Source: Patescibacteria group bacterium (GTDB taxonomy: Bacteria > Patescibacteriota > Patescibacteriia > UM-FILTER-42-10). From it: a DNA stretch of 64,000 nucleotides. Each line of letters begins with the position of its first letter. Within the stretch, counting starts at the first letter, position 1. The stretch is from NCBI GenBank assembly GCA_041664365.1, contig JBAYKW010000001.1, positions 144,862-208,861 of the forward strand, in the 5' to 3' direction. This document shows, one piece after another, positions 5,808 through 63,969 of this stretch. A model generated the notes under the pieces. The model did not search any database, was not told where the DNA came from, and saw only the letters and a program-made list of their open reading frames with translations. The translations under genes were made by a program, and so were the position numbers.

Positions 5808-6386
5808 ATGAAAAAAATTATACTTGCCTCTACATCACCAAGAAGAACTGAACTGCTGAAAAATATAGGTTTGAAATTTTCAGTTGAAGACAGCAAATAC
5901 CAGGAGGACATGGGGAAAAAAATATCACCGGTCCGTCTGGCCAAGTTTTTGGCTTTGAGCAAAGCACAGGCCGTGGCAAAAAGGCACGCAAAGGGGATTG
6001 TCATCGGTGCGGATACCTTTGTAGTGCTAGGCGGACAGTTACTGGGCAAGCCGAAGAATAAAGCTGATGCCCGAAAAATGCTGAAAAAGATCAGTGGAAA
6101 AGATGTTTTGGTGATAACCGGTTTTGCGATTATTGACGCGGGAACGGGAAAGAAACATTCCGGTCACAGTACCGCAAAGGTTTCTATTAAGAATCTGACG
6201 TCCGGTGAGATAGAATGGTACATCAGGACCGGAGAACCACTGGATAAAGCGGGCGCTTTCGCTGTTCAGGAATACGGTGCAGTACTGATCCGGAAGCTGT
6301 CTGGTGATTATTTCAGCGTTGTCGGGTTACCAATTTACATGGTTGCAGAAGCACTAAAAAAATTTGGAATTACAGTAATGAAATAA
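5808..6386 (+). CDS. maf: Maf-like nucleoside triphosphate pyrophosphatase
   Basis: N-terminal IILASTSPRRTELL and the downstream GADT..V.G...GKP pattern are typical of the Maf/YhdE family. Confidence 0.8.
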   Translation: MKKIILASTSPRRTELLKNIGLKFSVEDSKYQEDMGKKISPVRLAKFLALSKAQAVAKRHAKGIVIGADTFVVLGGQLLGKPKNKADARKMLKKISGKDVLVITGFAIIDAGTGKKHSGHSTAKVSIKNLTSGEIEWYIRTGEPLDKAGAFAVQEYGAVLIRKLSGDYFSVVGLPIYMVAEALKKFGITVMK

Positions 6387-42196: not shown

Positions 42197-42688
42197 ATGG
42201 CAGATCCAAAAATGCCAATGCCTGGCACACCAGATGATAATATGCCTGACGAGACTTCAGTTGATGAGAATAATCAGGAGACAATGGAGGCGGAAGTAAA
42301 CGAAAAAATAAGAGTATTTTTTGCTGATATAACAGAGTTGCGAGCTACCGGTGAGTTTGCTAGGAAAGACATATATAGTCAGTATTTTGACCAAGTATTT
42401 GATTCAATAAGTAAAAGTAAAGGTGAATATGTAAATTTTGATCATGTTGCTAACCAAGTTGACAATGCTACAGATATAATAAGAAGACTTCAGTTTAAAT
42501 GCGAAGCCGAAGCGCGTCATAAAAAGGATGAAGGAAATGATGTTATTAGTGAAAAAATGAATCAATTAGTAAAAAGAGCAGAAGAGATCTTACATCAGAT
42601 AATGGTAATAGCTTATAGAAAACATTACGATCTAGATTATGATGAGGTCCAGAGGGCATATGCAGAAATTCAAAAAGACGAAGAATGA
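42197..42688 (+). CDS. hypothetical acidic protein, M-A-D-P-K-x-P N-terminal family, paralog 1
   Basis: Starts MADPKMPMPG. The C-terminal RAEEILHQIM is shared with paralog 2. The ORF-track start at 42158 lies inside the conserved promoter string and is rejected. Confidence 0.4.
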   Translation: MADPKMPMPGTPDDNMPDETSVDENNQETMEAEVNEKIRVFFADITELRATGEFARKDIYSQYFDQVFDSISKSKGEYVNFDHVANQVDNATDIIRRLQFKCEAEARHKKDEGNDVISEKMNQLVKRAEEILHQIMVIAYRKHYDLDYDEVQRAYAEIQKDEE

Positions 42689-47754: not shown

Positions 47755-48303
47755 ATGAAATATCGTGCATTTTTAGCGATTTATCCTAGCACTGAGATTA
47801 TAAAATTACTGGGCAGGGTACTCGCGGATTTAAAAGGCAGTTCAATTCCCGCGAAGTGGGTTGAGAAGCAGAATCTGCACCTGACTTTGAAATTTTTCGG
47901 CGCGCAAGCTGACGATCGGATATATGATATTGAACAGGTACTGGAGGATGTTTTGTCAGACTTTAATCCCTTTACATTACGATTGAAGGGAGTTTCCATA
48001 TTTCCTGAGGGCAATCCGAAAATTGTCAGTGCTGATCTGGATGTTTCGCAGGAACTTACAAAAATTAAAAGAACGATTGACAGCGAGGTTTCTAATCTGC
48101 CGTTTGTCCAAGGAGACCGGCGTTCTTTCCTGACGCACATTACTCTGGGTAGAATCAGTTCGCAATTGTCGGAAGATCATAGAAAGTTATTGAGCAATAT
48201 TGTACTTGATGACGTGTGGGAAGTAGGCTCCGTGCATCTGATGGAGAGCGATCTCACAGGAGCATCGCCTAATTATTCCGTATTACAATCATATCAATTA
48301 TGA
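47755..48303 (+). CDS. thpR: RNA 2',3'-cyclic phosphodiesterase (2H phosphoesterase, ThpR/LigT)
   Basis: Two HxT/Sx motifs, HLTLKFFG and HITLGRI, at the expected spacing. Confidence 0.75.
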   Translation: MKYRAFLAIYPSTEIIKLLGRVLADLKGSSIPAKWVEKQNLHLTLKFFGAQADDRIYDIEQVLEDVLSDFNPFTLRLKGVSIFPEGNPKIVSADLDVSQELTKIKRTIDSEVSNLPFVQGDRRSFLTHITLGRISSQLSEDHRKLLSNIVLDDVWEVGSVHLMESDLTGASPNYSVLQSYQL

Positions 48304-49064
48304 AACAGGATATATTAGGGGTACAAGTCAGTAGGATTAATATGAAGGAAGCGCTGGATGTTATAGAACAATGCGTAGTTTTTCCGCGCTTGAATTATAT
48401 CGTTACTCCCAACCCGGAATTCATTGTACGCGCACAAAAAGATAAAATATTCCGGGACATTTTGAATAACGCTGTGATTGCGCTTCCAGATGGATTTGGT
48501 CTGATGCTCGCCGCGAAGTTTTTGAAACGCCCGCTTAACCAGCGCATAACTGGAGTTGATTTTATCTGGCATGTTGCTGAGCTTGCCGAGAAAAATGATT
48601 ATTCAATATATTTATACGGCGCTGGAAAAGGCATTGCAAAAAAAACAGCACAGAGATTACAGAAAAGATTTCCACATTTGAAAATTCTGGGTGCGGAAAG
48701 CGGGTATGACAAAGATGGTAAAATGAATGATGCTTTGTTTGTTGAAGACATCCGGTTAAAATCCCCGGATATACTGCTGGTTGCGCTGGGAGCACCAAAA
48801 CAGGAAAAATGGATCGCCGCGCATTTGCCGGATTTTACCGGTGTGAAAGTGGCAATGGGCGTGGGCGGAGCATTCGATTATATTTCCGGCAGTATCAAGC
48901 GAGCGCCAAAACTTATTCGAAAGATTGGACTGGAGTGGCTCTACCGTTTAATTCTTCAGCCATGGCGCATAAAGCGGATTTTTACCGCTACAATTCATTT
49001 TACATATTTAGTTATTAAGGTAAAGATAATGGATTCCCGCCTGCGCGGGAATGACATACAATAA
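48300..49064 (+). CDS. WecB/TagA/CpsF-family glycosyltransferase; its C-terminal 10 codons are read from a palindromic repeat unit
   Basis: ILGVQVSRINMKEALDVIEQ...NYIVTPNPEFIV is typical of the TagA/WecG family. The tail ...MDSRLRGNDIQ* is encoded by repeat unit C1 (ggattcccgcctgcgcgggaatgaca). Confidence 0.7.
   Translation: MKQDILGVQVSRINMKEALDVIEQCVVFPRLNYIVTPNPEFIVRAQKDKIFRDILNNAVIALPDGFGLMLAAKFLKRPLNQRITGVDFIWHVAELAEKNDYSIYLYGAGKGIAKKTAQRLQKRFPHLKILGAESGYDKDGKMNDALFVEDIRLKSPDILLVALGAPKQEKWIAAHLPDFTGVKVAMGVGGAFDYISGSIKRAPKLIRKIGLEWLYRLILQPWRIKRIFTATIHFTYLVIKVKIMDSRLRGNDIQ
49031..49056. repeat. palindromic repeat unit C1 (GGATTCCCGC-ctgc-GCGGGAATGACA)
   Basis: 7-bp perfect stem, read directly. 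Reverse-orientation member of the family GTCATyyyCGG...CCGrrATCCA. Confidence 0.7.
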
Positions 49065-49075
49065 CAATTCAATAG

Positions 49076-49095
49076 TGTCATCTTCGGACTCGACT
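49076..49095. repeat. partial repeat unit A' (TGTCATCTTCGGACTCGAC)
   Basis: Matches the first 15 nt of unit A. Confidence 0.5.
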
Positions 49096-49120
49096 TTAAT
49101 GTAATTACCGCTATCTCTCT

Positions 49121-49153
49121 GTCATTATCGGGCTTGGCCCGGTAATCCAAAAA
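49121..49153. repeat. palindromic repeat unit B1 (GTCATTATCGGGCTTGGCCCGGTAATCCAAAAA)
   Basis: Hairpin CGGGC-ttgg-CCCGG. About 75% identical to unit A. Confidence 0.7.
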
Positions 49154-49160
49154 CAATCAA

Positions 49161-49205
49161 TGGATCCCCGGACCACCTTCTGCGAAGGCGTCCGAGGATG
49201 ACAAT
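49161..49205. repeat. palindromic repeat unit D (GGATCCCCGGACC-loop-GTCCGAGGATGACA) with internal hairpin CCTTC-tgc-GAAGG
   Basis: Same terminal arms as C1 with a longer loop. Confidence 0.6.
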
Positions 49206-49242
49206 ACTGGGGTTTACTGACATGTCAAATACAATTTTTAAT

Positions 49243-49272
49243 GTCATCTTCGGACTTGGTCCGGAGATCCAC
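49243..49272. repeat. palindromic repeat unit A1 (GTCATCTTCGGACTTGGTCCGGAGATCCAC)
   Basis: Exact 30-nt copy recurs at 49645-49674. Hairpin CGGAC-ttg-GTCCG. Confidence 0.8.
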
Positions 49273-49281
49273 GAATAGAAT

Positions 49282-49569
49282 ATGAACCAATACTACGTTT
49301 ACATAATGGCAAGTAAAAAGAATGGAACGCTTTACATAGGCGTTACGAATAATATTATCAGAAGAGTATATGAGCATAAGAATAATGAAGTTGAAGGATT
49401 TTCGAAGAAATATAAAGTGCATAGACTAGTCTATTACGAGCAAACAGAAAATGTGGAGAGTGCATTGAATCGTGAAAAGCAATTAAAAAAGTGGAATAGA
49501 GAGTGGAAAATTAATTTAATACAAAAAGAAAATCCGAATTGGAAAGATTTATATAACGAGCTAATATAA
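49282..49569 (+). CDS. GIY-YIG nuclease-family protein (UPF0213/YhbQ-like)
   Basis: YYVYIMASKKNGTLYIGVTNNIIRRVYEHK contains the GIY...YIG...R...E catalytic motifs. At 95 aa it resembles E. coli YhbQ. Confidence 0.75.
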   Translation: MNQYYVYIMASKKNGTLYIGVTNNIIRRVYEHKNNEVEGFSKKYKVHRLVYYEQTENVESALNREKQLKKWNREWKINLIQKENPNWKDLYNELI

Positions 49570-49575
49570 AGACAT

Positions 49576-49626
49576 GGATTCCCGTTCCCCGATCAAGTCG
49601 AGGACAAGCTTTGCGGGAATGACAAA
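49576..49626. repeat. palindromic repeat unit C2 (GGATTCCCG-long loop-CGGGAATGACA)
   Basis: Same arms as C1 with an expanded loop. Confidence 0.6.
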
Positions 49627-49644
49627 CAATGTAGTATAACAAAT

Positions 49645-49674
49645 GTCATCTTCGGACTTGGTCCGGAGATCCAC
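49645..49674. repeat. palindromic repeat unit A2 (exact copy of A1)
   Basis: gtcatcttcggacttggtccggagatccac is identical to 49243-49272. Confidence 0.8.
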
Positions 49675-49689
49675 AAACAATCTAAAACT

Positions 49690-49722
49690 GTCATTCTCGG
49701 GCTTGACCCGGGAATCCAAAAA
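49690..49722. repeat. palindromic repeat unit B2 (GTCATTCTCGGGCTTGACCCGGGAATCCAAAAA)
   Basis: Differs from B1 at 4 positions. Confidence 0.7.
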
Positions 49723-49748
49723 ATAAATAAAATAAGTAATATAACAGC

Positions 49749-51203
49749 ATGAAAAATAAAGAAGTCAGAGTCCGAATTGCTCCATCACCAACCGGCTCCT
49801 TGCATTTAGGAACGGCGAGGTCCGCTTTGTATAACTATTTATTTGCCAAAAGAGAAGGCGGAACATTTATTCTGCGCATAGAAGATACCGACCTGGAACG
49901 CTCTGAAGAAAGATTCACCAAACAAATTATAGAGGGTTTGGAATGGCTAGGCATAGAGTGGGACGAAGGTCCGACATTAGACGGAAAAGAAAAAGGCAAA
50001 TATGGTCCGTATTTCCAGACCAAACGAACCGCAACTTATGAAAAATATATAAAACAGCTTCTGGATGAAGACAAGGCGTATTATTGCTACTGCACCAAAG
50101 AAGAGCTGGAAGCGGAAAGAAAAGCGATGGGAGAAAAAGGTGAAGCGCCGATCTATAGCGGTAAATGCGCGCATTTATCAAAAGAAGAAAAAGAAGCATT
50201 TGAAAAAGAAGGAAGGAATTCAATCATCCGATATCGTGTGCCGGAAAGTACGATCAAATTCAAAGACATGATCAGGGGCGATATGAGTTTTGAAGCCGGG
50301 CTGATGGGCGATATTGCCGTGGCACGCGATGTTAAAACTCCGCTCTACAATCTGGCAGTCGTGATCGACGACTACATGATGGAGATATCGCACGTGATCC
50401 GTGGAGAGGATCATTTATCCAACACACCAAAGCAGATATTAATGACCGAGGCGCTGGGATTTCCCGTGCCGGAATTTGGGCATCTGCCTTTGATTCTCAA
50501 TGAAGATAAAACCAAACTTTCCAAACGCAAGACCAAGGTAACGATAGATGATTATAAAGAAGAGGGCTATCTGCCGGAAGCAATCTTAAACTTTGTATTA
50601 CTTCTCGGTTGGAACCCGAAAACCGAACAGGAAATGTTTACTCTGCCTGAGATGGTTCATGTATTCAATATCGGCGGTGTGCACAAGGGTGGTGCGGTTT
50701 TCGCCAAGGATAAATTGGACTGGATCAATTCCCAATATCTGCGCAAACTTTCTCCCGACCAATTCCTGGAACTTGCTTTACCATTCTTAGAAAAAGCGGG
50801 GATTAATATTAGCGACAAAGAATATGTGAGGAAAGCAATCGTGTTGGAACAGGAGCGGATTAAAAAACTTTCCGACCTGCCCGAAATGGTGAAATTCTTC
50901 TTCAATGACATTTCCTACGACCCGAAACTTTTGGTCTGGAAAAAATCCGATCCGGAAGTTACAAAAGTAAATTTAAAATTGGCTTTGGAATTCTTTGAAA
51001 GCCTGGATGAAAAAGACTGGTCCGAGGAGAAAATAGAAAATGGATTGATGAAACTGATTGAAGAAAAGGGATTGAAAAACGGTGAAATCCTCTGGCCGAT
51101 CCGCGTGGCTTTGACGGGGGAAGAAAAATCCCCAAGTCCTTTTGAAGTCGCGGGGGTTTTGGGTAAGGAGAGGGTGGTGGAGAGGTTAAATAATGTTGTT
51201 TAA
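49749..51203 (+). CDS. gltX: glutamate--tRNA ligase
   Basis: RVRIAPSPTGSLHLGTARSALYNY (HIGH region), KLSKRK (KMSKS) and a C-terminal anticodon-binding domain. Confidence 0.9.
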   Translation: MKNKEVRVRIAPSPTGSLHLGTARSALYNYLFAKREGGTFILRIEDTDLERSEERFTKQIIEGLEWLGIEWDEGPTLDGKEKGKYGPYFQTKRTATYEKYIKQLLDEDKAYYCYCTKEELEAERKAMGEKGEAPIYSGKCAHLSKEEKEAFEKEGRNSIIRYRVPESTIKFKDMIRGDMSFEAGLMGDIAVARDVKTPLYNLAVVIDDYMMEISHVIRGEDHLSNTPKQILMTEALGFPVPEFGHLPLILNEDKTKLSKRKTKVTIDDYKEEGYLPEAILNFVLLLGWNPKTEQEMFTLPEMVHVFNIGGVHKGGAVFAKDKLDWINSQYLRKLSPDQFLELALPFLEKAGINISDKEYVRKAIVLEQERIKKLSDLPEMVKFFFNDISYDPKLLVWKKSDPEVTKVNLKLALEFFESLDEKDWSEEKIENGLMKLIEEKGLKNGEILWPIRVALTGEEKSPSPFEVAGVLGKERVVERLNNVV

Positions 51204-61904: not shown

Positions 61905-61975
61905 ATTTTGATCAAATAAAAAAACCGCATTCAGCAAAGATTGCTGGTGCGGTGTGGGGAATGAACGGCGTTCAG
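61905..61975. terminator. bidirectional terminator-like hairpin between convergent genes
   Basis: AAAAAACCGC...GCGGTTTTTTT with internal complementarity. Marks the boundary into the high-GC segment. Confidence 0.45.
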
Positions 61976-63969
61976 CGCGGTTTTTTTGCATGCAGCAGAT
62001 CTTTGAGAAATGCTGAAAACAGCGCTAGGTCAGCATGAGCGAAACGGATTGTTCTGGCGCTGAAAAGTAGCCAGATCCTTCCGTGGGCAACTCTGTGTTT
62101 CAAAATCCGCCAATGCTCCTCAATGTCCACCCGTGTGTTTCTGGCTGAAGTACGCATGTTGGCCAGTCGTAAACCACTTGGTACCTTATGACCATGTGAT
62201 TTATACAAACTCCTTAGCTCAGAGAGTTTGAGGTTCGGCCAATGGCCCGCATGCTTCTTTTCAACCAGCTGGATGACCTCTTCCTCGATCTTGCCCTGTT
62301 CACGGGTTTGTAGCCACACTTCCAGCATGATCCGCAGGAACCGGGCTGTCTCCCGGGCTAGGCGGATGTTTTCACGCGTGTTGTAGACCCAAAACTGGAA
62401 CAGATTGAGCTGAGGAAAACTGCTCCTCCTCGAATGCCGGGATCGCACCCGGGCAAAACCCGCCACCATCGGATGGCGTTTCGGCACCATCAGCGCGTAT
62501 TTGTACCAGACGAGGTTCCAGAAGATCTTCCAGTAATCCTGCCTTTCCGTATGTTTGAGGATACGTACCATGTTCTCGGTGGAATAGAACGTCTCCCACG
62601 CAGACCGGTAGGCGGATAGCCACTCCTCCCGGGTCATCAGCGGGTGATCTATGACCGGATGTGAGAATGAGTCGAAGGAGTTCAGGTCCGAATCCATCGG
62701 TACACCGGCTAGGAACAGCCGTTTGTGATCCATTGCTCCCGGCAGTGGTGTGGCAATGAAAAACGACACGGTATCCGGTTCCAGCTCCATCAGCTGAAGA
62801 ACGTCCTTATGCACTGATTCCGGCGTGTCGTGCGGCAGGCCGATCATGAAGGCAAGGTGGGTCGCGATGCCGTGCTTTTTGAAGGCAGACATCATTTCCC
62901 GGAACTGCTCCACGTGGTTTTGGCCTTTGCCGACCGCAGACAAGTTCAAAGGGTTCAGACTTTCGATCCCGATGAACGCCATCGAACAGCCGGCCAGCGC
63001 CGCTTTTTCTAGGAATTGCGGAATCTTGTGGCACTGGGTATCCACCTGCATCAGGAAGTGAATATGGATTCTTTCTTCTTTCTGCATGGCGATCAGCGTG
63101 TCGAAGCGCTCTTCCCAAAAAGGATCTCGGGCTGTGTTGTCAGAAGTCAGGAAGTAGACCCGAATGCCCAATCTCCAGTTGGCTCGGATCGCGTCCGCGA
63201 AACCCTGAACGCCTCGCGCCCTAATCACCCTGCCTTGGACTACCCAGATCGTGCAGTACTGGCAGTTGAATGGGCATCCACGGCACGCGTCGATGGTGCT
63301 GGTGTTCGGATAGACGAATCGGTGCTTAATCTCCGCAATGGACATTGGAACCGGTTCCTCCAGAAGGCTCGGCGGATCGTCGACGTAGTTGTATGTCGGC
63401 TTGAGACCGCCGGACAGAAAGTCCTGCAGCAATCCCAGCATCCTGCCTTCTGCTTCACCGGCAAACAGCGCCACGCCATTGTCGGTCAGAGCTTTCAGAC
63501 CCAGTTCCTTGTAGGCTCTCATGTTATCCGCGCTCCCGTCCTGCGGAAACTGCTTCAGGATTCCGGACACATGGTATCCGCCCATGATCACGGAAATTCC
63601 CCGTTTCCTGAACTCGAGCGCAAGATCGGAAGCTCGTACGAACTGGCTGGTTTGAACACCGGCCAGCATTACCAGAGTACGTCCGGGAAGGGTACGGCAG
63701 AGAAAAGCTATCCTGCTCGGCAGAACAGCCTCCACCGCCTCGTCGTAGATTCTGACGACGATGTGCACCTTGATTCCCAGTCGCAGATTTTGCCTCACAT
63801 CCTGAATCAGGCTGTAAAGCGTCGCCAGCGTATTGCTGGGATACACGCCCCGGAAGTCCTGCCAGACAAAGCCGTTCTCATCGTCGTATTTTGACGGTTT
63901 GATCAGCACCAAGTTGAGGACTTTCTTTCCCGAAAGCACAGCCCAGAAAGACGTTGTTTGTCTCGCCAA
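61972..63969 (-). CDS. B12-binding-domain radical SAM protein (cobalamin-dependent rSAM with DUF4070-like C-terminus), in a high-GC segment
   Basis: N-terminal Rossmann-like B12-binding region, then CRGCPFNCQYC (the CxxxCxxC radical SAM cluster motif) and a ~250-aa C-terminal domain. GC is ~58%. Confidence 0.75.
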   Translation of the reverse strand: MARQTTSFWAVLSGKKVLNLVLIKPSKYDDENGFVWQDFRGVYPSNTLATLYSLIQDVRQNLRLGIKVHIVVRIYDEAVEAVLPSRIAFLCRTLPGRTLVMLAGVQTSQFVRASDLALEFRKRGISVIMGGYHVSGILKQFPQDGSADNMRAYKELGLKALTDNGVALFAGEAEGRMLGLLQDFLSGGLKPTYNYVDDPPSLLEEPVPMSIAEIKHRFVYPNTSTIDACRGCPFNCQYCTIWVVQGRVIRARGVQGFADAIRANWRLGIRVYFLTSDNTARDPFWEERFDTLIAMQKEERIHIHFLMQVDTQCHKIPQFLEKAALAGCSMAFIGIESLNPLNLSAVGKGQNHVEQFREMMSAFKKHGIATHLAFMIGLPHDTPESVHKDVLQLMELEPDTVSFFIATPLPGAMDHKRLFLAGVPMDSDLNSFDSFSHPVIDHPLMTREEWLSAYRSAWETFYSTENMVRILKHTERQDYWKIFWNLVWYKYALMVPKRHPMVAGFARVRSRHSRRSSFPQLNLFQFWVYNTRENIRLARETARFLRIMLEVWLQTREQGKIEEEVIQLVEKKHAGHWPNLKLSELRSLYKSHGHKVPSGLRLANMRTSARNTRVDIEEHWRILKHRVAHGRIWLLFSARTIRFAHADLALFSAFLKDLLHAKKPR

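What the first reader, a model, noticed from the sequence alone, without database searches (positions are those of the whole stretch)
49031..49725. GIY-YIG (UPF0213) nuclease gene embedded in a cluster of eight hairpin-forming palindromic repeat units that also rewrites the upstream gene's C-terminus
Within ~700 bp there are eight members of one repeat family, consensus roughly GTCATyyTCGGrCTTGryCCGGrrATCCA, each a hairpin. Two are exact 30-nt copies (49243 and 49645), and some are in reverse orientation with expanded loops (C1, D, C2). Five lie upstream and three downstream of a 95-aa GIY-YIG nuclease gene, between the WecB/TagA glycosyltransferase gene and gltX. The last 10 codons of the glycosyltransferase (...MDSRLRGNDIQ*) are read straight out of repeat unit C1, so the insertion has replaced or extended that gene's end. 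Small GIY-YIG genes are known to behave as selfish or homing-like elements. An association with a private family of REP/MITE-like palindromes suggests either a mobile module that spreads with its repeats, or a nuclease that targets these hairpins.
Basis: partly seen in the sequence, partly recalled or inferred. Interest (0 to 1): 0.72.

Follow-up and report, generated by a model that had tools for sequence, protein, structure and literature searches.

The report
Ssn nuclease gene with hairpin targets
A small DNA-cutting enzyme gene in an uncultured Patescibacteria genome sits inside a cluster of the hairpin repeats that enzymes of this family (Ssn, described in 2025) bind and cut on single-stranded DNA; it is a typical member of a known system, and related genomes show the block was inserted between two formerly overlapping genes.

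Summary
Seven complete hairpin units and one half unit lie in window 49030-49718, around a 95-aa GIY-YIG gene (49282-49569). No other unit occurs in the 64-kb window.

This is a known system: an Ssn-family single-stranded-DNA nuclease with its Ssn-related motifs (SRM/NTS hairpins), described by Chenal et al. 2025 (PMC11893778).
- The protein is 52% identical, without gaps, to the 94-aa Neisseria gonorrhoeae SsnA orthologue. Y7/Y18/E65 align with the published Y6/Y17/E64.
- Unit 49030-49055 is almost the Neisseria NTS, and three units match the published SRM search string.
- In 80 homologous loci from many phyla, such hairpins are about 100-fold denser within 100 bp of the gene than beyond 300 bp.

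Related Patescibacteria genomes add three points.
- One lineage has an empty site, where the wecG stop overlaps the gltX start.
- Four lineages carry ssn plus variable hairpin sets at this junction, and ssn is under purifying selection (dN/dS about 0.06).
- Only the window genome has the unit that rewrites the WecG C-terminus.

The "UPF0213" and "private repeat family" labels are wrong. This is a new member of a known kind. Whether the block moves by itself remains open.

The parts
48300..49064 (+). WecG/TagA-family glycosyltransferase gene (254 aa). Its last 11 residues (MDSRLRGNDIQ) replace the native end because of the inserted hairpin unit.
   Evidence: Pfam PF03808, E 8e-58. The NCBIfam TarA profile match ends at residue 243. 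Orthologues are 245-248 aa and end K[G/S]K.K...
49030..49055 (-). SRM unit of the canonical NTS type, GTCATTCCCGCGCAGGCGGGAATCCA, lying inside the wecG 3' end. It is present only in this genome.
   Evidence: Matches the published SRM string. Scores 43.8 bits, E 2e-10, with a model built from other genomes. DNA hairpin of -9.3 kcal/mol, z -3.6. Absent from L001, L004, L206, L208 and L210.
49077..49090 (+). Half unit (left arm only, GTCATCTTCGGACT), an old relic.
   Evidence: Direct-repeat family D2. Does not fold. The same relic follows the wecG stop in L001 and, degraded, in L004.
49121..49149 (+). SRM unit GTCATTATCGGGCTTGGCCCGGTAATCCA.
   Evidence: Hairpin z -3.8. Model hit of 13.9 bits.
49161..49202 (-). 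SRM unit with an expanded loop that forms a nested hairpin.
   Evidence: Fold of -11.3 kcal/mol, z -3.2. The orthologous units in L001 and L004 keep the inner stem through a compensatory C-G to T-A change.
49243..49271 (+). SRM unit, copy 1 of the exact 30-mer. It is the innermost upstream unit, 10 nt before the ATG.
   Evidence: Matches the published SRM string at 49242-49272. Position and orientation match the family norm.
49282..49569 (+). ssn gene: a 95-aa single-domain GIY-YIG nuclease of the Ssn family.
   Evidence: Pfam PF01541, E 5e-16, residues 3-78. 52% identity, no gaps, E 7e-39 to the N. gonorrhoeae SsnA orthologue. Y7/Y18/E65 align with Y6/Y17/E64. dN/dS about 0.06 against L001 and L004.
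49575..49623 (-). SRM unit with an NTS-type outer stem and a composite loop. It is the innermost downstream unit, 5 nt after the stop codon.
   Evidence: Fold of -10.8 kcal/mol, z -2.8. The minus orientation matches the family norm (51 of 63 loci).
49645..49673 (+). SRM unit, copy 2 of the exact 30-mer.
   Evidence: SRM string match at 49644-49674. An identical 30-mer is in L004 at 6445.
49690..49718 (+). SRM unit GTCATTCTCGGGCTTGACCCGGGAATCCA.
   Evidence: Model hit of 24.7 bits, E 1e-4. The same arms occur in L001 and L004 with a 38-nt nested hairpin in the loop.
49749..51203 (+). gltX (glutamate--tRNA ligase), the right boundary of the inserted block.
   Evidence: Pfam PF00749 and PF19269. 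In L208 and L209 its ATG overlaps the wecG stop codon.

Best explanation
This is an Ssn-SRM locus.

What the parts are. The 95-aa protein is a single-domain GIY-YIG nuclease of the Ssn family. The surrounding units are its cognate Ssn-related motifs (NTS-type hairpins).

How it most likely works (inferred from characterised homologues). When this DNA is single-stranded, as in replication, repair or DNA uptake, the strand reading GTCA...TCCA folds into a hairpin. Ssn binds it by both sequence and shape. It then cuts the single strand a few nucleotides 5' of GTCAT. It does not act on double-stranded DNA, RNA or the complementary strand.

History of the block (shown by comparison here). The hairpins plus ssn were inserted between wecG and gltX, which were formerly translationally coupled, in an ancestor of this lineage. 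The gene has since been kept at that site under purifying selection. The hairpin set keeps turning over. One recent unit landed in the last codons of wecG and gave WecG a new 11-residue tail.

Biological role (inferred, not shown). The most likely role is control of what happens to hairpin-bearing single-stranded DNA, for example incoming transforming DNA as in Neisseria.
For: Published biochemistry of the family.
- Ssn enzymes from N. meningitidis, N. elongata, N. wadsworthii and Wolbachia cut ssDNA next to their own NTS/SRM.
- NTS is CGTCATTCCCGCGMAVGCGGGAATCYRG.
- 71% of ssnA homologues have flanking SRMs (PMC11893778).

Protein.
- It is 52% identical over 93 residues without gaps, E 7e-39, to a 94-aa N. 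gonorrhoeae protein.
- That protein carries Y6, Y17 and E64 and is flanked by NTS.
- Pfam finds a GIY-YIG domain and nothing else.

Hairpins.
- Three units match the published SRM search string, against 0.09 hits expected per random window.
- All seven full units keep the GTC before the palindrome and the C after it. The paper found these bases most critical for cutting and binding.
- All seven fold as DNA hairpins.
- All units in 64 kb lie within 700 bp around the gene.

Family-wide association, re-derived here from 80 loci in many phyla.
- Hairpin density is 9.4 per kb within 100 bp of the gene, against 0.05-0.1 per kb beyond 300 bp.
- 73 of 80 loci have a unit within 300 bp, and 49 of 80 have one on both sides.
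- The nearest upstream unit is '+' in 52 of 65 loci. The nearest downstream unit is '-' in 51 of 63. The window follows both rules.

Insertion and retention.
- L208 and L209 have the wecG stop overlapping the gltX start (ATGA), with no hairpins.
- L001, L004, L206 and L212 have ssn at the same junction with different unit sets.
- dN/dS is 0.06 at dS 0.5-0.7.
Against: - No enzyme assay exists for this protein or for any Patescibacteria member. Its specificity for the non-NTS subtypes here (the TTCGGAC/CTTG type) is assumed.
- The CDD assignment (cd10448) that the authors use to delimit the family could not be run.
- Four of the seven full units fail the published SRM string, either by one or two positions or because of long loops.
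- The Neisseria role relies on hundreds of dispersed NTS copies. In this genome no unit was seen outside the locus in 64 kb, so the same role is not obvious here.
- Starting from hairpins instead of genes, only 3 of 120 metagenomic loci with this hairpin subtype also hold an ssn gene. Most hairpins therefore live away from the gene.
Confidence: 0.88

Rival explanations
1. The block is primarily an autonomous selfish element. In this reading, SRM(+)-ssn-SRM(-) is an IS-like or homing-like unit whose hairpin ends are cut by its own nuclease. Solitary hairpins would be its non-autonomous, MITE-like derivatives. This does not exclude the best explanation; it is a claim about why the system exists and spreads.
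For: - An empty site exists in a related genome, with overlapping wecG and gltX.
- A solitary unit was gained inside the wecG 3' end in this genome only.
- The innermost hairpins are in inverted orientation in about 80% of 80 loci.
- An identical 30-mer is shared with L004, although synonymous sites in the adjacent gene have diverged (dS 0.67).
- The protein is 70-75% identical to proteins of unrelated phyla. That is as close as the same-locus orthologue in L206, at 74%.
- GIY-YIG genes are listed among genes exchanged between Patescibacteria and other bacteria (PMC12455944).
- The authors of PMC11893778 raise the IS analogy themselves.
Against: - GIY-YIG nucleases hydrolyse DNA. None is known to carry out strand transfer.
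- The gene has stayed at one locus through dS of at least 0.6 under strong purifying selection.
- No clear target-site duplication is visible at either boundary.
- There is no second ssn copy in the window.
- No homologue was found in 50,697 phage records.
- 32 of 33 plasmid-collection hits are on non-mobilizable replicons, some of them mislabelled chromosomes.
Confidence: 0.25
2. The hairpins act at the RNA level, as small RNA genes, terminators or attenuators for wecG, ssn and gltX. In this reading the nuclease gene is an unrelated neighbour.
For: - Sub-threshold Rfam hits to FtrB (Francisella sRNA B) fall on the minus strand at 30.4 and 26.2 bits, against a gathering score of 66. This shows that such units can be part of a transcribed sRNA elsewhere.
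- One unit lies 10 nt before the ssn ATG and another lies 5 nt after its stop codon.
Against: - No Rfam family reaches its gathering score.
- Terminator-like and promoter-like sites are no more frequent than in shuffled sequence, and the hairpins lack T-runs.
- SsnA does not bind RNA of the same sequence (PMC11893778).
- The roughly 100-fold enrichment next to ssn genes across phyla argues against an unrelated neighbour.
Confidence: 0.05
3. These are generic REP/BIME-type extragenic palindromes maintained by a RAYT (Y1 transposase) elsewhere in the genome, or a chance or assembly artefact.
For: They are short, GC-rich, imperfect palindromes clustered in an intergenic region in both orientations, as BIMEs are.
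Against: - The units match NTS/SRM in sequence, not only in shape.
- The adjacent gene is GIY-YIG, not a Y1 transposase.
- Chance expectation is 0.00 matches.
- The arrangement recurs exactly in another contig, and with variations in four related genomes.
Confidence: 0.02

Closest known systems
Ssn nucleases with NTS/SRM hairpins (SsnA of Neisseria meningitidis; Chenal et al. 2025, PMC11893778)
   Same: - A single-domain GIY-YIG protein of 94-95 aa.
- 52% identity to the Neisseria orthologue, with the mutated catalytic residues aligned.
- Hairpins with a GTCAT 5' flank and a C after the palindrome. One unit is virtually the NTS itself.
- Hairpins on both sides of the gene.
   Different: - The host is a Patescibacteria MAG, a group not mentioned in that paper.
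- Most units here belong to a TTCGGAC/CTTG-loop subtype or have expanded, nested loops that the published search string misses.
- No dispersed copies were seen in 64 kb, whereas pathogenic Neisseria carry hundreds.
- There is no functional assay.
REP/BIME repeats with RAYT (Y1/HUH) transposases
   Same: - Clustered imperfect palindromes in both orientations next to the gene of the enzyme thought to act on them as single-stranded hairpins.
- A domesticated-looking, single-copy gene.
   Different: - The enzyme fold and chemistry differ: a GIY-YIG hydrolase, not an HUH tyrosine transposase.
- The repeat sequence is unrelated.
IS200/IS605 (TnpA, 'peel and paste')
   Same: A small gene bracketed by subterminal hairpins that are recognised on single-stranded DNA.
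   Different: - IS200/IS605 cuts both ends on the same strand using a covalent tyrosine intermediate.
- Here the innermost hairpins are inverted relative to each other, so the predicted cuts fall on opposite strands.
- The nuclease has no known joining activity.
GIY-YIG homing endonucleases (I-TevI type)
   Same: - A GIY-YIG catalytic domain.
- A patchy, cross-phylum distribution.
   Different: - No DNA-binding domain, and the gene is not in an intron or a phage.
- The group I intron endonuclease model scores 18 bits against a cut-off of 56.
- The published substrate of the family is ssDNA, not dsDNA.
UPF0213 proteins (BH0048/1zg2, EF2693/1ywl; the YhbQ type)
   Same: A stand-alone GIY-YIG protein of about 100 aa.
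   Different: Similarity is only weak (E 8e-4 and 0.17).
dRS3 repeats of Neisseria, and the Rfam family FtrB (Francisella sRNA B, RF02748)
   Same: - dRS3 (ATTCCC-N8-GGGAAT) is the palindromic core of NTS and of unit 49030-49055.
- The FtrB consensus contains GUCAUUCCCGCGUAGGCGGGAAUC.
   Different: - dRS3 was defined without the oriented flanks.
- FtrB is defined as a transcript. The window matches it only below threshold.

Membership tests
Ssn nuclease family (cd10448 clade, PMC11893778) | Single-domain GIY-YIG protein of about 94 aa with no extra domain. | tested here: met
   95 aa. PF01541 covers residues 3-78, and the only other Pfam hit is the related T5orf172.
Ssn nuclease family (cd10448 clade, PMC11893778) | Homology to N. 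meningitidis SsnA (the authors' criterion is E < 1e-10). | tested here: met
   Tested against the N. gonorrhoeae orthologue (L205:1498-1782). This is a 94-aa protein, flanked by NTS, with Y6, Y17 and E64 as published. tblastn E 9e-28. blastp 52% identity, no gaps, E 7e-39. The N. meningitidis protein itself was not available.
Ssn nuclease family (cd10448 clade, PMC11893778) | Catalytic Tyr, Tyr and Glu residues, whose mutation abolishes cutting (Y6, Y17, E64). | tested here: met
   Y7, Y18 and E65 align with them. They are invariant in 15 family members.
Ssn nuclease family (cd10448 clade, PMC11893778) | Top CDD hit is cd10448 (GIY-YIG_unchar_3). | not testable with these tools
   No CDD/rpsblast is available. 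NCBIfam has no specific model.
Ssn nuclease family (cd10448 clade, PMC11893778) | SRM hairpins flank the gene on both sides. | tested here: met
   The published search string hits 49242-49272 (upstream) and 49644-49674 (downstream). There are five upstream and three downstream units in all.
Ssn nuclease family (cd10448 clade, PMC11893778) | Site-specific cleavage of ssDNA only, next to the hairpin. | not testable with these tools
   This needs purified protein and oligonucleotide substrates.
SRM/NTS hairpin repeats | Match to HGTCWYN(0-2)YYVSBRHN(0-5)WNVSBRGN(0-2)RNCYNB. | tested here: inconclusive
   Three of seven full units match. 49121 and 49690 fail by one or two positions. 49161 and 49575 fail because their loops exceed 5 nt. 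A structure model built from other genomes' units still recovers 49121 and 49690.
SRM/NTS hairpin repeats | Oriented flanks: GTC before the palindrome and C directly after it. | tested here: met
   All seven full units read GTCA...TCCA. The importance of these bases comes from mutagenesis in PMC11893778.
SRM/NTS hairpin repeats | Predicted hairpin as single-stranded DNA. | tested here: met
   -6.6 to -11.3 kcal/mol, z -2.4 to -3.8, for the seven units. The half unit does not fold.
UPF0213 | Close sequence similarity to the UPF0213 representatives with solved structures. | tested here: inconclusive
   1zg2 E 7.7e-4 (23 bits) and 1ywl E 0.17. This is distant superfamily-level similarity only.
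REP/RAYT and IS200/IS605 | An associated Y1 (HUH) transposase gene. | tested here: not met
   The gene inside the cluster is GIY-YIG. Its neighbours are LigT, WecG and GltX. The rest of the window was not screened for Y1 transposases.
GIY-YIG homing endonucleases | A nuclease domain plus a C-terminal DNA-binding domain, with an intron or phage context. | tested here: not met
   95 aa with a single domain. TIGR01453 scores 18 bits against a cut-off of 56. No phage homologues were found.
Intrinsic terminators | A GC-rich stem followed by a T-run. | tested here: not met
   One terminator-like site was found against 1.3 expected in shuffles.

The most novel reading that the evidence does not exclude
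SRM(+)-ssn-SRM(-) is a self-mobilising, hairpin-ended element of a new mechanistic class. In this reading a GIY-YIG single-strand nick at each 5' end is completed by host replication or repair. Dispersed solitary SRMs would be its non-autonomous derivatives. The window would then show one old insertion that split a translationally coupled wecG-gltX pair, and one recent solitary hairpin insertion that rewrote a protein's C-terminus.
Probability: 0.22. Interest if true: 0.8.

Novelty: new member of a known kind. Interest (0 to 1): 0.35.

Why it matters
For annotation, the locus can be named: an ssn nuclease gene with SRM hairpins, not 'UPF0213' and not a private repeat family. It also explains the odd 'MDSRLRGNDIQ'-type protein tails as read-through into hairpin units.

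For biology, it extends the Ssn system to Patescibacteria. These are ultra-small bacteria in which DNA-uptake genes are prevalent (PMC12455944), so single-stranded DNA processing is plausibly important.

The set of related genomes gives a concrete natural series for an open question in the 2025 paper: whether NTS-ssnA-NTS is, or was, a mobile element. The series runs from an empty site, to a hairpin-only site, to four different filled sites.

The orientation rule found here (innermost upstream unit '+', innermost downstream unit '-', in about 80% of 80 loci) is a testable constraint on any mechanism.

Tried and rejected
- Strand asymmetry of stem mismatches. Five window units carry a T·G at stem position 4, which suggested selection on one strand. 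In an unbiased sample of 195 units near ssn genes, 176 stems were perfect, with 9 T·G against 4 C·A. That gives no clear signal, so the idea was dropped.
- Promoter and terminator scan. No excess over shuffled sequence.
- Rfam. Nothing reaches gathering score in the region or in the whole window. The sub-threshold FtrB hits are explained by an NTS unit inside that model.
- Genome-wide copy count. It did not return the source contig or the 1.18-Mb relative, so the count outside the 64-kb window remains unknown. It did show that 117 of 120 such hairpin loci hold no ssn gene.
- Supplementary tables of PMC11893778 are not held. The Neisseria comparison sequence came instead from an N. gonorrhoeae chromosome filed as a plasmid in PLSDB.
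- Phage collection: no homologue.
- PADLOC defence models: only insignificant hits of about 15 bits.
- Target-site duplication. The boundaries are AT-rich and diverged, and none could be called.
- Pair-covariation statistics on unit alignments were not used as evidence, because the units had been selected for pairing.
Full report
OBSERVATION. The region reads as the first-stage reader described.
- A scan for GTCA-stem-loop-stem-TCCA on both strands finds seven complete units. They lie at 49030-49055(-), 49121-49149(+), 49161-49202(-), 49243-49271(+), 49575-49623(-), 49645-49673(+) and 49690-49718(+). The only other hit in 64 kb is a weak, long-looped one at 47955.
- A half unit, GTCATCTTCGGACT, lies at 49077-49090.
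- The 30-mers at 49243 and 49645 are identical.
- All seven full units fold as DNA hairpins, with z-scores from -2.4 to -3.8. The half unit does not fold.
- The genes are a WecG/TagA glycosyltransferase (48300-49064), a 95-aa GIY-YIG protein (49282-49569) and gltX (49749-51203).
- There is no second GIY-YIG gene in the window.
- A 1086-bp contig from a JGI sample is an exact substring of window 48748-49833. A 392,022-bp ENA contig carries the same protein. The arrangement is therefore not an assembly accident.

WHAT IT IS. A literature search led to Chenal et al. 2025 (PMC11893778). That paper reports the following.
- It defines the Ssn family: single-domain GIY-YIG proteins of about 94 aa, in the CDD cd10448 clade.
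- These proteins bind hairpin repeats only as single-stranded DNA and cut a few nucleotides upstream.
- They do not act on dsDNA, RNA or the reverse strand.
- The Neisseria repeat (NTS) is CGTCATTCCCGCGMAVGCGGGAATCYRG.
- The generalised Ssn-related motif (SRM) is HGTCWYN(0-2)YYVSBRHN(0-5)WNVSBRGN(0-2)RNCYNB.
- 71% of ssnA homologues have SRMs in their flanks.

HAIRPINS COMPARED WITH THE PUBLISHED MOTIF.
- Window unit 49030-49055 reads GTCATTCCCGCGCAGGCGGGAATCCA on the minus strand, which is essentially the NTS.
- The published SRM string hits 49029-49056(-), 49242-49272(+) and 49644-49674(+).
- It also hits a non-hairpin site at 42341, which is probably chance. About 0.09 hits are expected per random window.
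- The other four units miss the string by one or two positions, or because their loops are longer than five nucleotides.
- All seven full units keep the GTC before the palindrome and the C after it. The paper's mutagenesis found these bases most critical for cutting and binding.
- A covariance model built only from units of other genomes recovers five window units (best 43.8 bits, E 2e-10). It finds nothing credible elsewhere in the window.

PROTEIN MEMBERSHIP.
- The paper's supplements are not held.
- A protein search of the plasmid collection hit two 2.17-Mb Neisseria gonorrhoeae records, which are chromosomes filed as plasmids.
- The matching ORF (L205:1498-1782) encodes 94 aa with Y6, Y17 and E64. 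These are the residues mutated in the paper. It is flanked by canonical NTS units.
- The window protein is 52% identical to it over 93 residues without a gap, E 7e-39. Y7, Y18 and E65 are aligned.
- Similarity to the UPF0213 structures is only distant (1zg2 E 8e-4; 1ywl E 0.17).
- The CDD assignment itself could not be run.

THE ASSOCIATION, RE-DERIVED. The source is a Patescibacteria MAG.
- Homologues that are 58-78% identical occur in Patescibacteria, Omnitrophota, Dadabacteria, Nitrospirae, Planctomycetes, Chloroflexi, Cyanobacteria, Bacteroidota-related groups and several proteobacterial classes.
- In 80 genome loci, hairpin density is 9.4 per kb within 100 bp of the gene and 1.7 per kb at 100-300 bp. 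Beyond 300 bp it is 0.05-0.1 per kb.
- 73 of 80 loci have a unit within 300 bp, and 49 of 80 have one on both sides.
- The commonest unit is the 26-nt GTCATTCCCGCGAAAGCGGGAATCCA.
- The nearest upstream unit is in the '+' orientation in 52 of 65 loci, at a median of about 19 nt before the ATG. I did not find this orientation rule stated in the paper's text.
- The nearest downstream unit is in the '-' orientation in 51 of 63 loci, at a median of about 8 nt after the stop codon.
- The window obeys both rules, at 10 nt and 5 nt.
- The converse association is weak. Of 120 metagenomic loci holding the TCGGRCTTG-type unit, from hosts with 31-68% GC, only three also hold an ssn homologue.
- The repeat family is therefore widespread and mostly dispersed. 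It is not private to this locus.

HISTORY OF THIS LOCUS. Relatives were found through the Ssn and GltX proteins. They share the order LigT-WecG-(Ssn)-GltX.
- L001 (GltX 90% identical), L004 and L212, and L206 (84%) all carry ssn at the junction.
- Their hairpins differ in number, order, orientation and loop content. Spacer lengths range from about 640 to 1080 bp.
- L208 and L209 (79%) have no ssn and no hairpins. There the wecG stop overlaps the gltX start (ATGA).
- L210 and L211 (78%) have a 522-bp spacer without ssn. It contains two SRM-like hairpins that end in TCTA, plus other palindromes.
- The simplest reading is an insertion of the block into a translationally coupled gene pair, followed by vertical inheritance.
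- Between the window, L001 and L004, ssn has dN/dS of about 0.06 at dS 0.5-0.7.
- At that divergence the exact 30-mer is still shared with L004.
- The nested stem of unit 49161-49202 is maintained in L001 by a compensatory C-G to T-A change.
- The hairpins are therefore constrained or renewed.

THE WecG TAIL.
- Five orthologues are 245-248 aa and end ...K[G/S]K.K..
- The window protein is 254 aa and ends ...KVKIMDSRLRGNDIQ.
- The DNA alignment shows about 35 extra nucleotides in the window only, 26 of which are unit 49030-49055.
- The NCBIfam TarA model match ends at residue 243.

MECHANISM.
- Shown here: family membership by sequence; hairpin identity and predicted fold; clustering at the gene; insertion relative to an empty site; purifying selection; turnover of units.
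- Inferred from characterised homologues: binding of the GTCA...TCCA strand as a hairpin and cutting 5' of it on ssDNA only.
- Inferred without direct support: the role in this organism.
- Competence genes are prevalent in Patescibacteria, and GIY-YIG genes are among those predicted to have been exchanged with other bacteria (PMC12455944). A role in handling incoming or replicative ssDNA is therefore plausible.
- No unit was seen outside the locus in 64 kb. The Neisseria model, in which many dispersed NTS copies shape recombination, may therefore not transfer directly.
- The mobile-element reading is not excluded. In its favour are the empty site, the inverted innermost hairpins, the solitary unit gain and the cross-phylum similarity.
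- Against it are the lack of any known joining activity in GIY-YIG enzymes, the long residence at one site, and the absence of a recognisable target duplication.

REJECTED ALTERNATIVES.
- Terminators or promoters: no excess over shuffled sequence.
- A curated RNA family: none reaches gathering score. The sub-threshold FtrB hits arise because that model contains an NTS unit.
- REP/RAYT or IS200/IS605: the associated gene is not a Y1 transposase.
- Homing endonuclease: single domain, TIGR01453 at 18 bits against a cut-off of 56, and no phage homologues.
- Defence-system component: only insignificant PADLOC hits.

VERDICT. The finding is real and correctly intuited, but it is explained by a system published in 2025. 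It is a new member of a known kind, in a phylum-level group that the paper does not mention. Its modest added value is comparative evidence on insertion, on turnover of units and on the orientation rule.

Noticed in passing
window 48990-49081(-) and 49095-49228(-); Rfam RF02748: The Rfam family FtrB (Francisella sRNA B) has a consensus containing GUCAUUCCCGCGUAGGCGGGAAUC, which is an NTS/SRM unit, followed by a second SRM-like hairpin. The window hits score 30 and 26 bits against a gathering score of 66 for that reason. This suggests FtrB is a transcript built from Ssn-type hairpins.
   Followed up: partly
L001:5921-5986 and 6304-6369; L004:5925-5990 and 6304-6369; L206:3613-3678: Several units in related genomes carry the same roughly 38-nt nested hairpin (CCAGCCCCACTGCCTAAYRGCAGTTAGGYGGCCGGGGG) in the loop. 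The corresponding window units (49243, 49690) have a plain CTTG(G/A) loop there. About 30% of units near ssn genes in 80 loci have expanded loops (34-94 nt), which the published SRM search string cannot match.
   Followed up: partly
L210:3479-4000 (and L211): A relative without ssn has a 522-bp wecG-gltX spacer. It holds two inverted SRM-like hairpins that end in TCTA (GTCAYYCTGAACTTGTTTCAGRRTCTA) and other unrelated palindromes. Either ssn was lost there or hairpins arrived without it.
   Followed up: partly
L208:5471-6961 (and L209:3259-4749): In the empty-site relative, a 496-aa reverse transcriptase (PF00078) gene lies directly downstream of gltX. The window and the other relatives do not have it there.
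   Followed up: no
window 61972-63969 (-): A 665-aa ORF with a CxxxCxxC motif (CRGCPFNCQYC, radical-SAM-like) has about 54% GC in a genome that averages about 38%. The boundary at about 62000 is sharp, so this may be horizontally acquired DNA. No rRNA or other Rfam family is present there.
   Followed up: no
PLSDB records NZ_CP119140.1 and NZ_CP119142.1 (L205): Two 2.17-Mb Neisseria gonorrhoeae records filed as plasmids are evidently chromosomes. They carry the ssnA orthologue with flanking NTS units. There the unit directly after the stop codon is '+', unlike the 80% rule seen in other phyla.
   Followed up: partly
sample ERZ27249449: contigs k141_744634 (L214) and k141_1042103 (L212): Two diverged lineages coexist in one sample: the window type, and the L004 type with a 94% identical Ssn. 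Their hairpin sets at the same junction differ. This would allow a read-level test for exchange or turnover.
   Followed up: no
window 42341-42371 (-): The published SRM search string also matches TGTCTTTCCTAGCAAACTCACCGGTAGCTCG. This sequence forms no hairpin and is probably a chance hit. It illustrates the false-positive rate of that string.
   Followed up: yes
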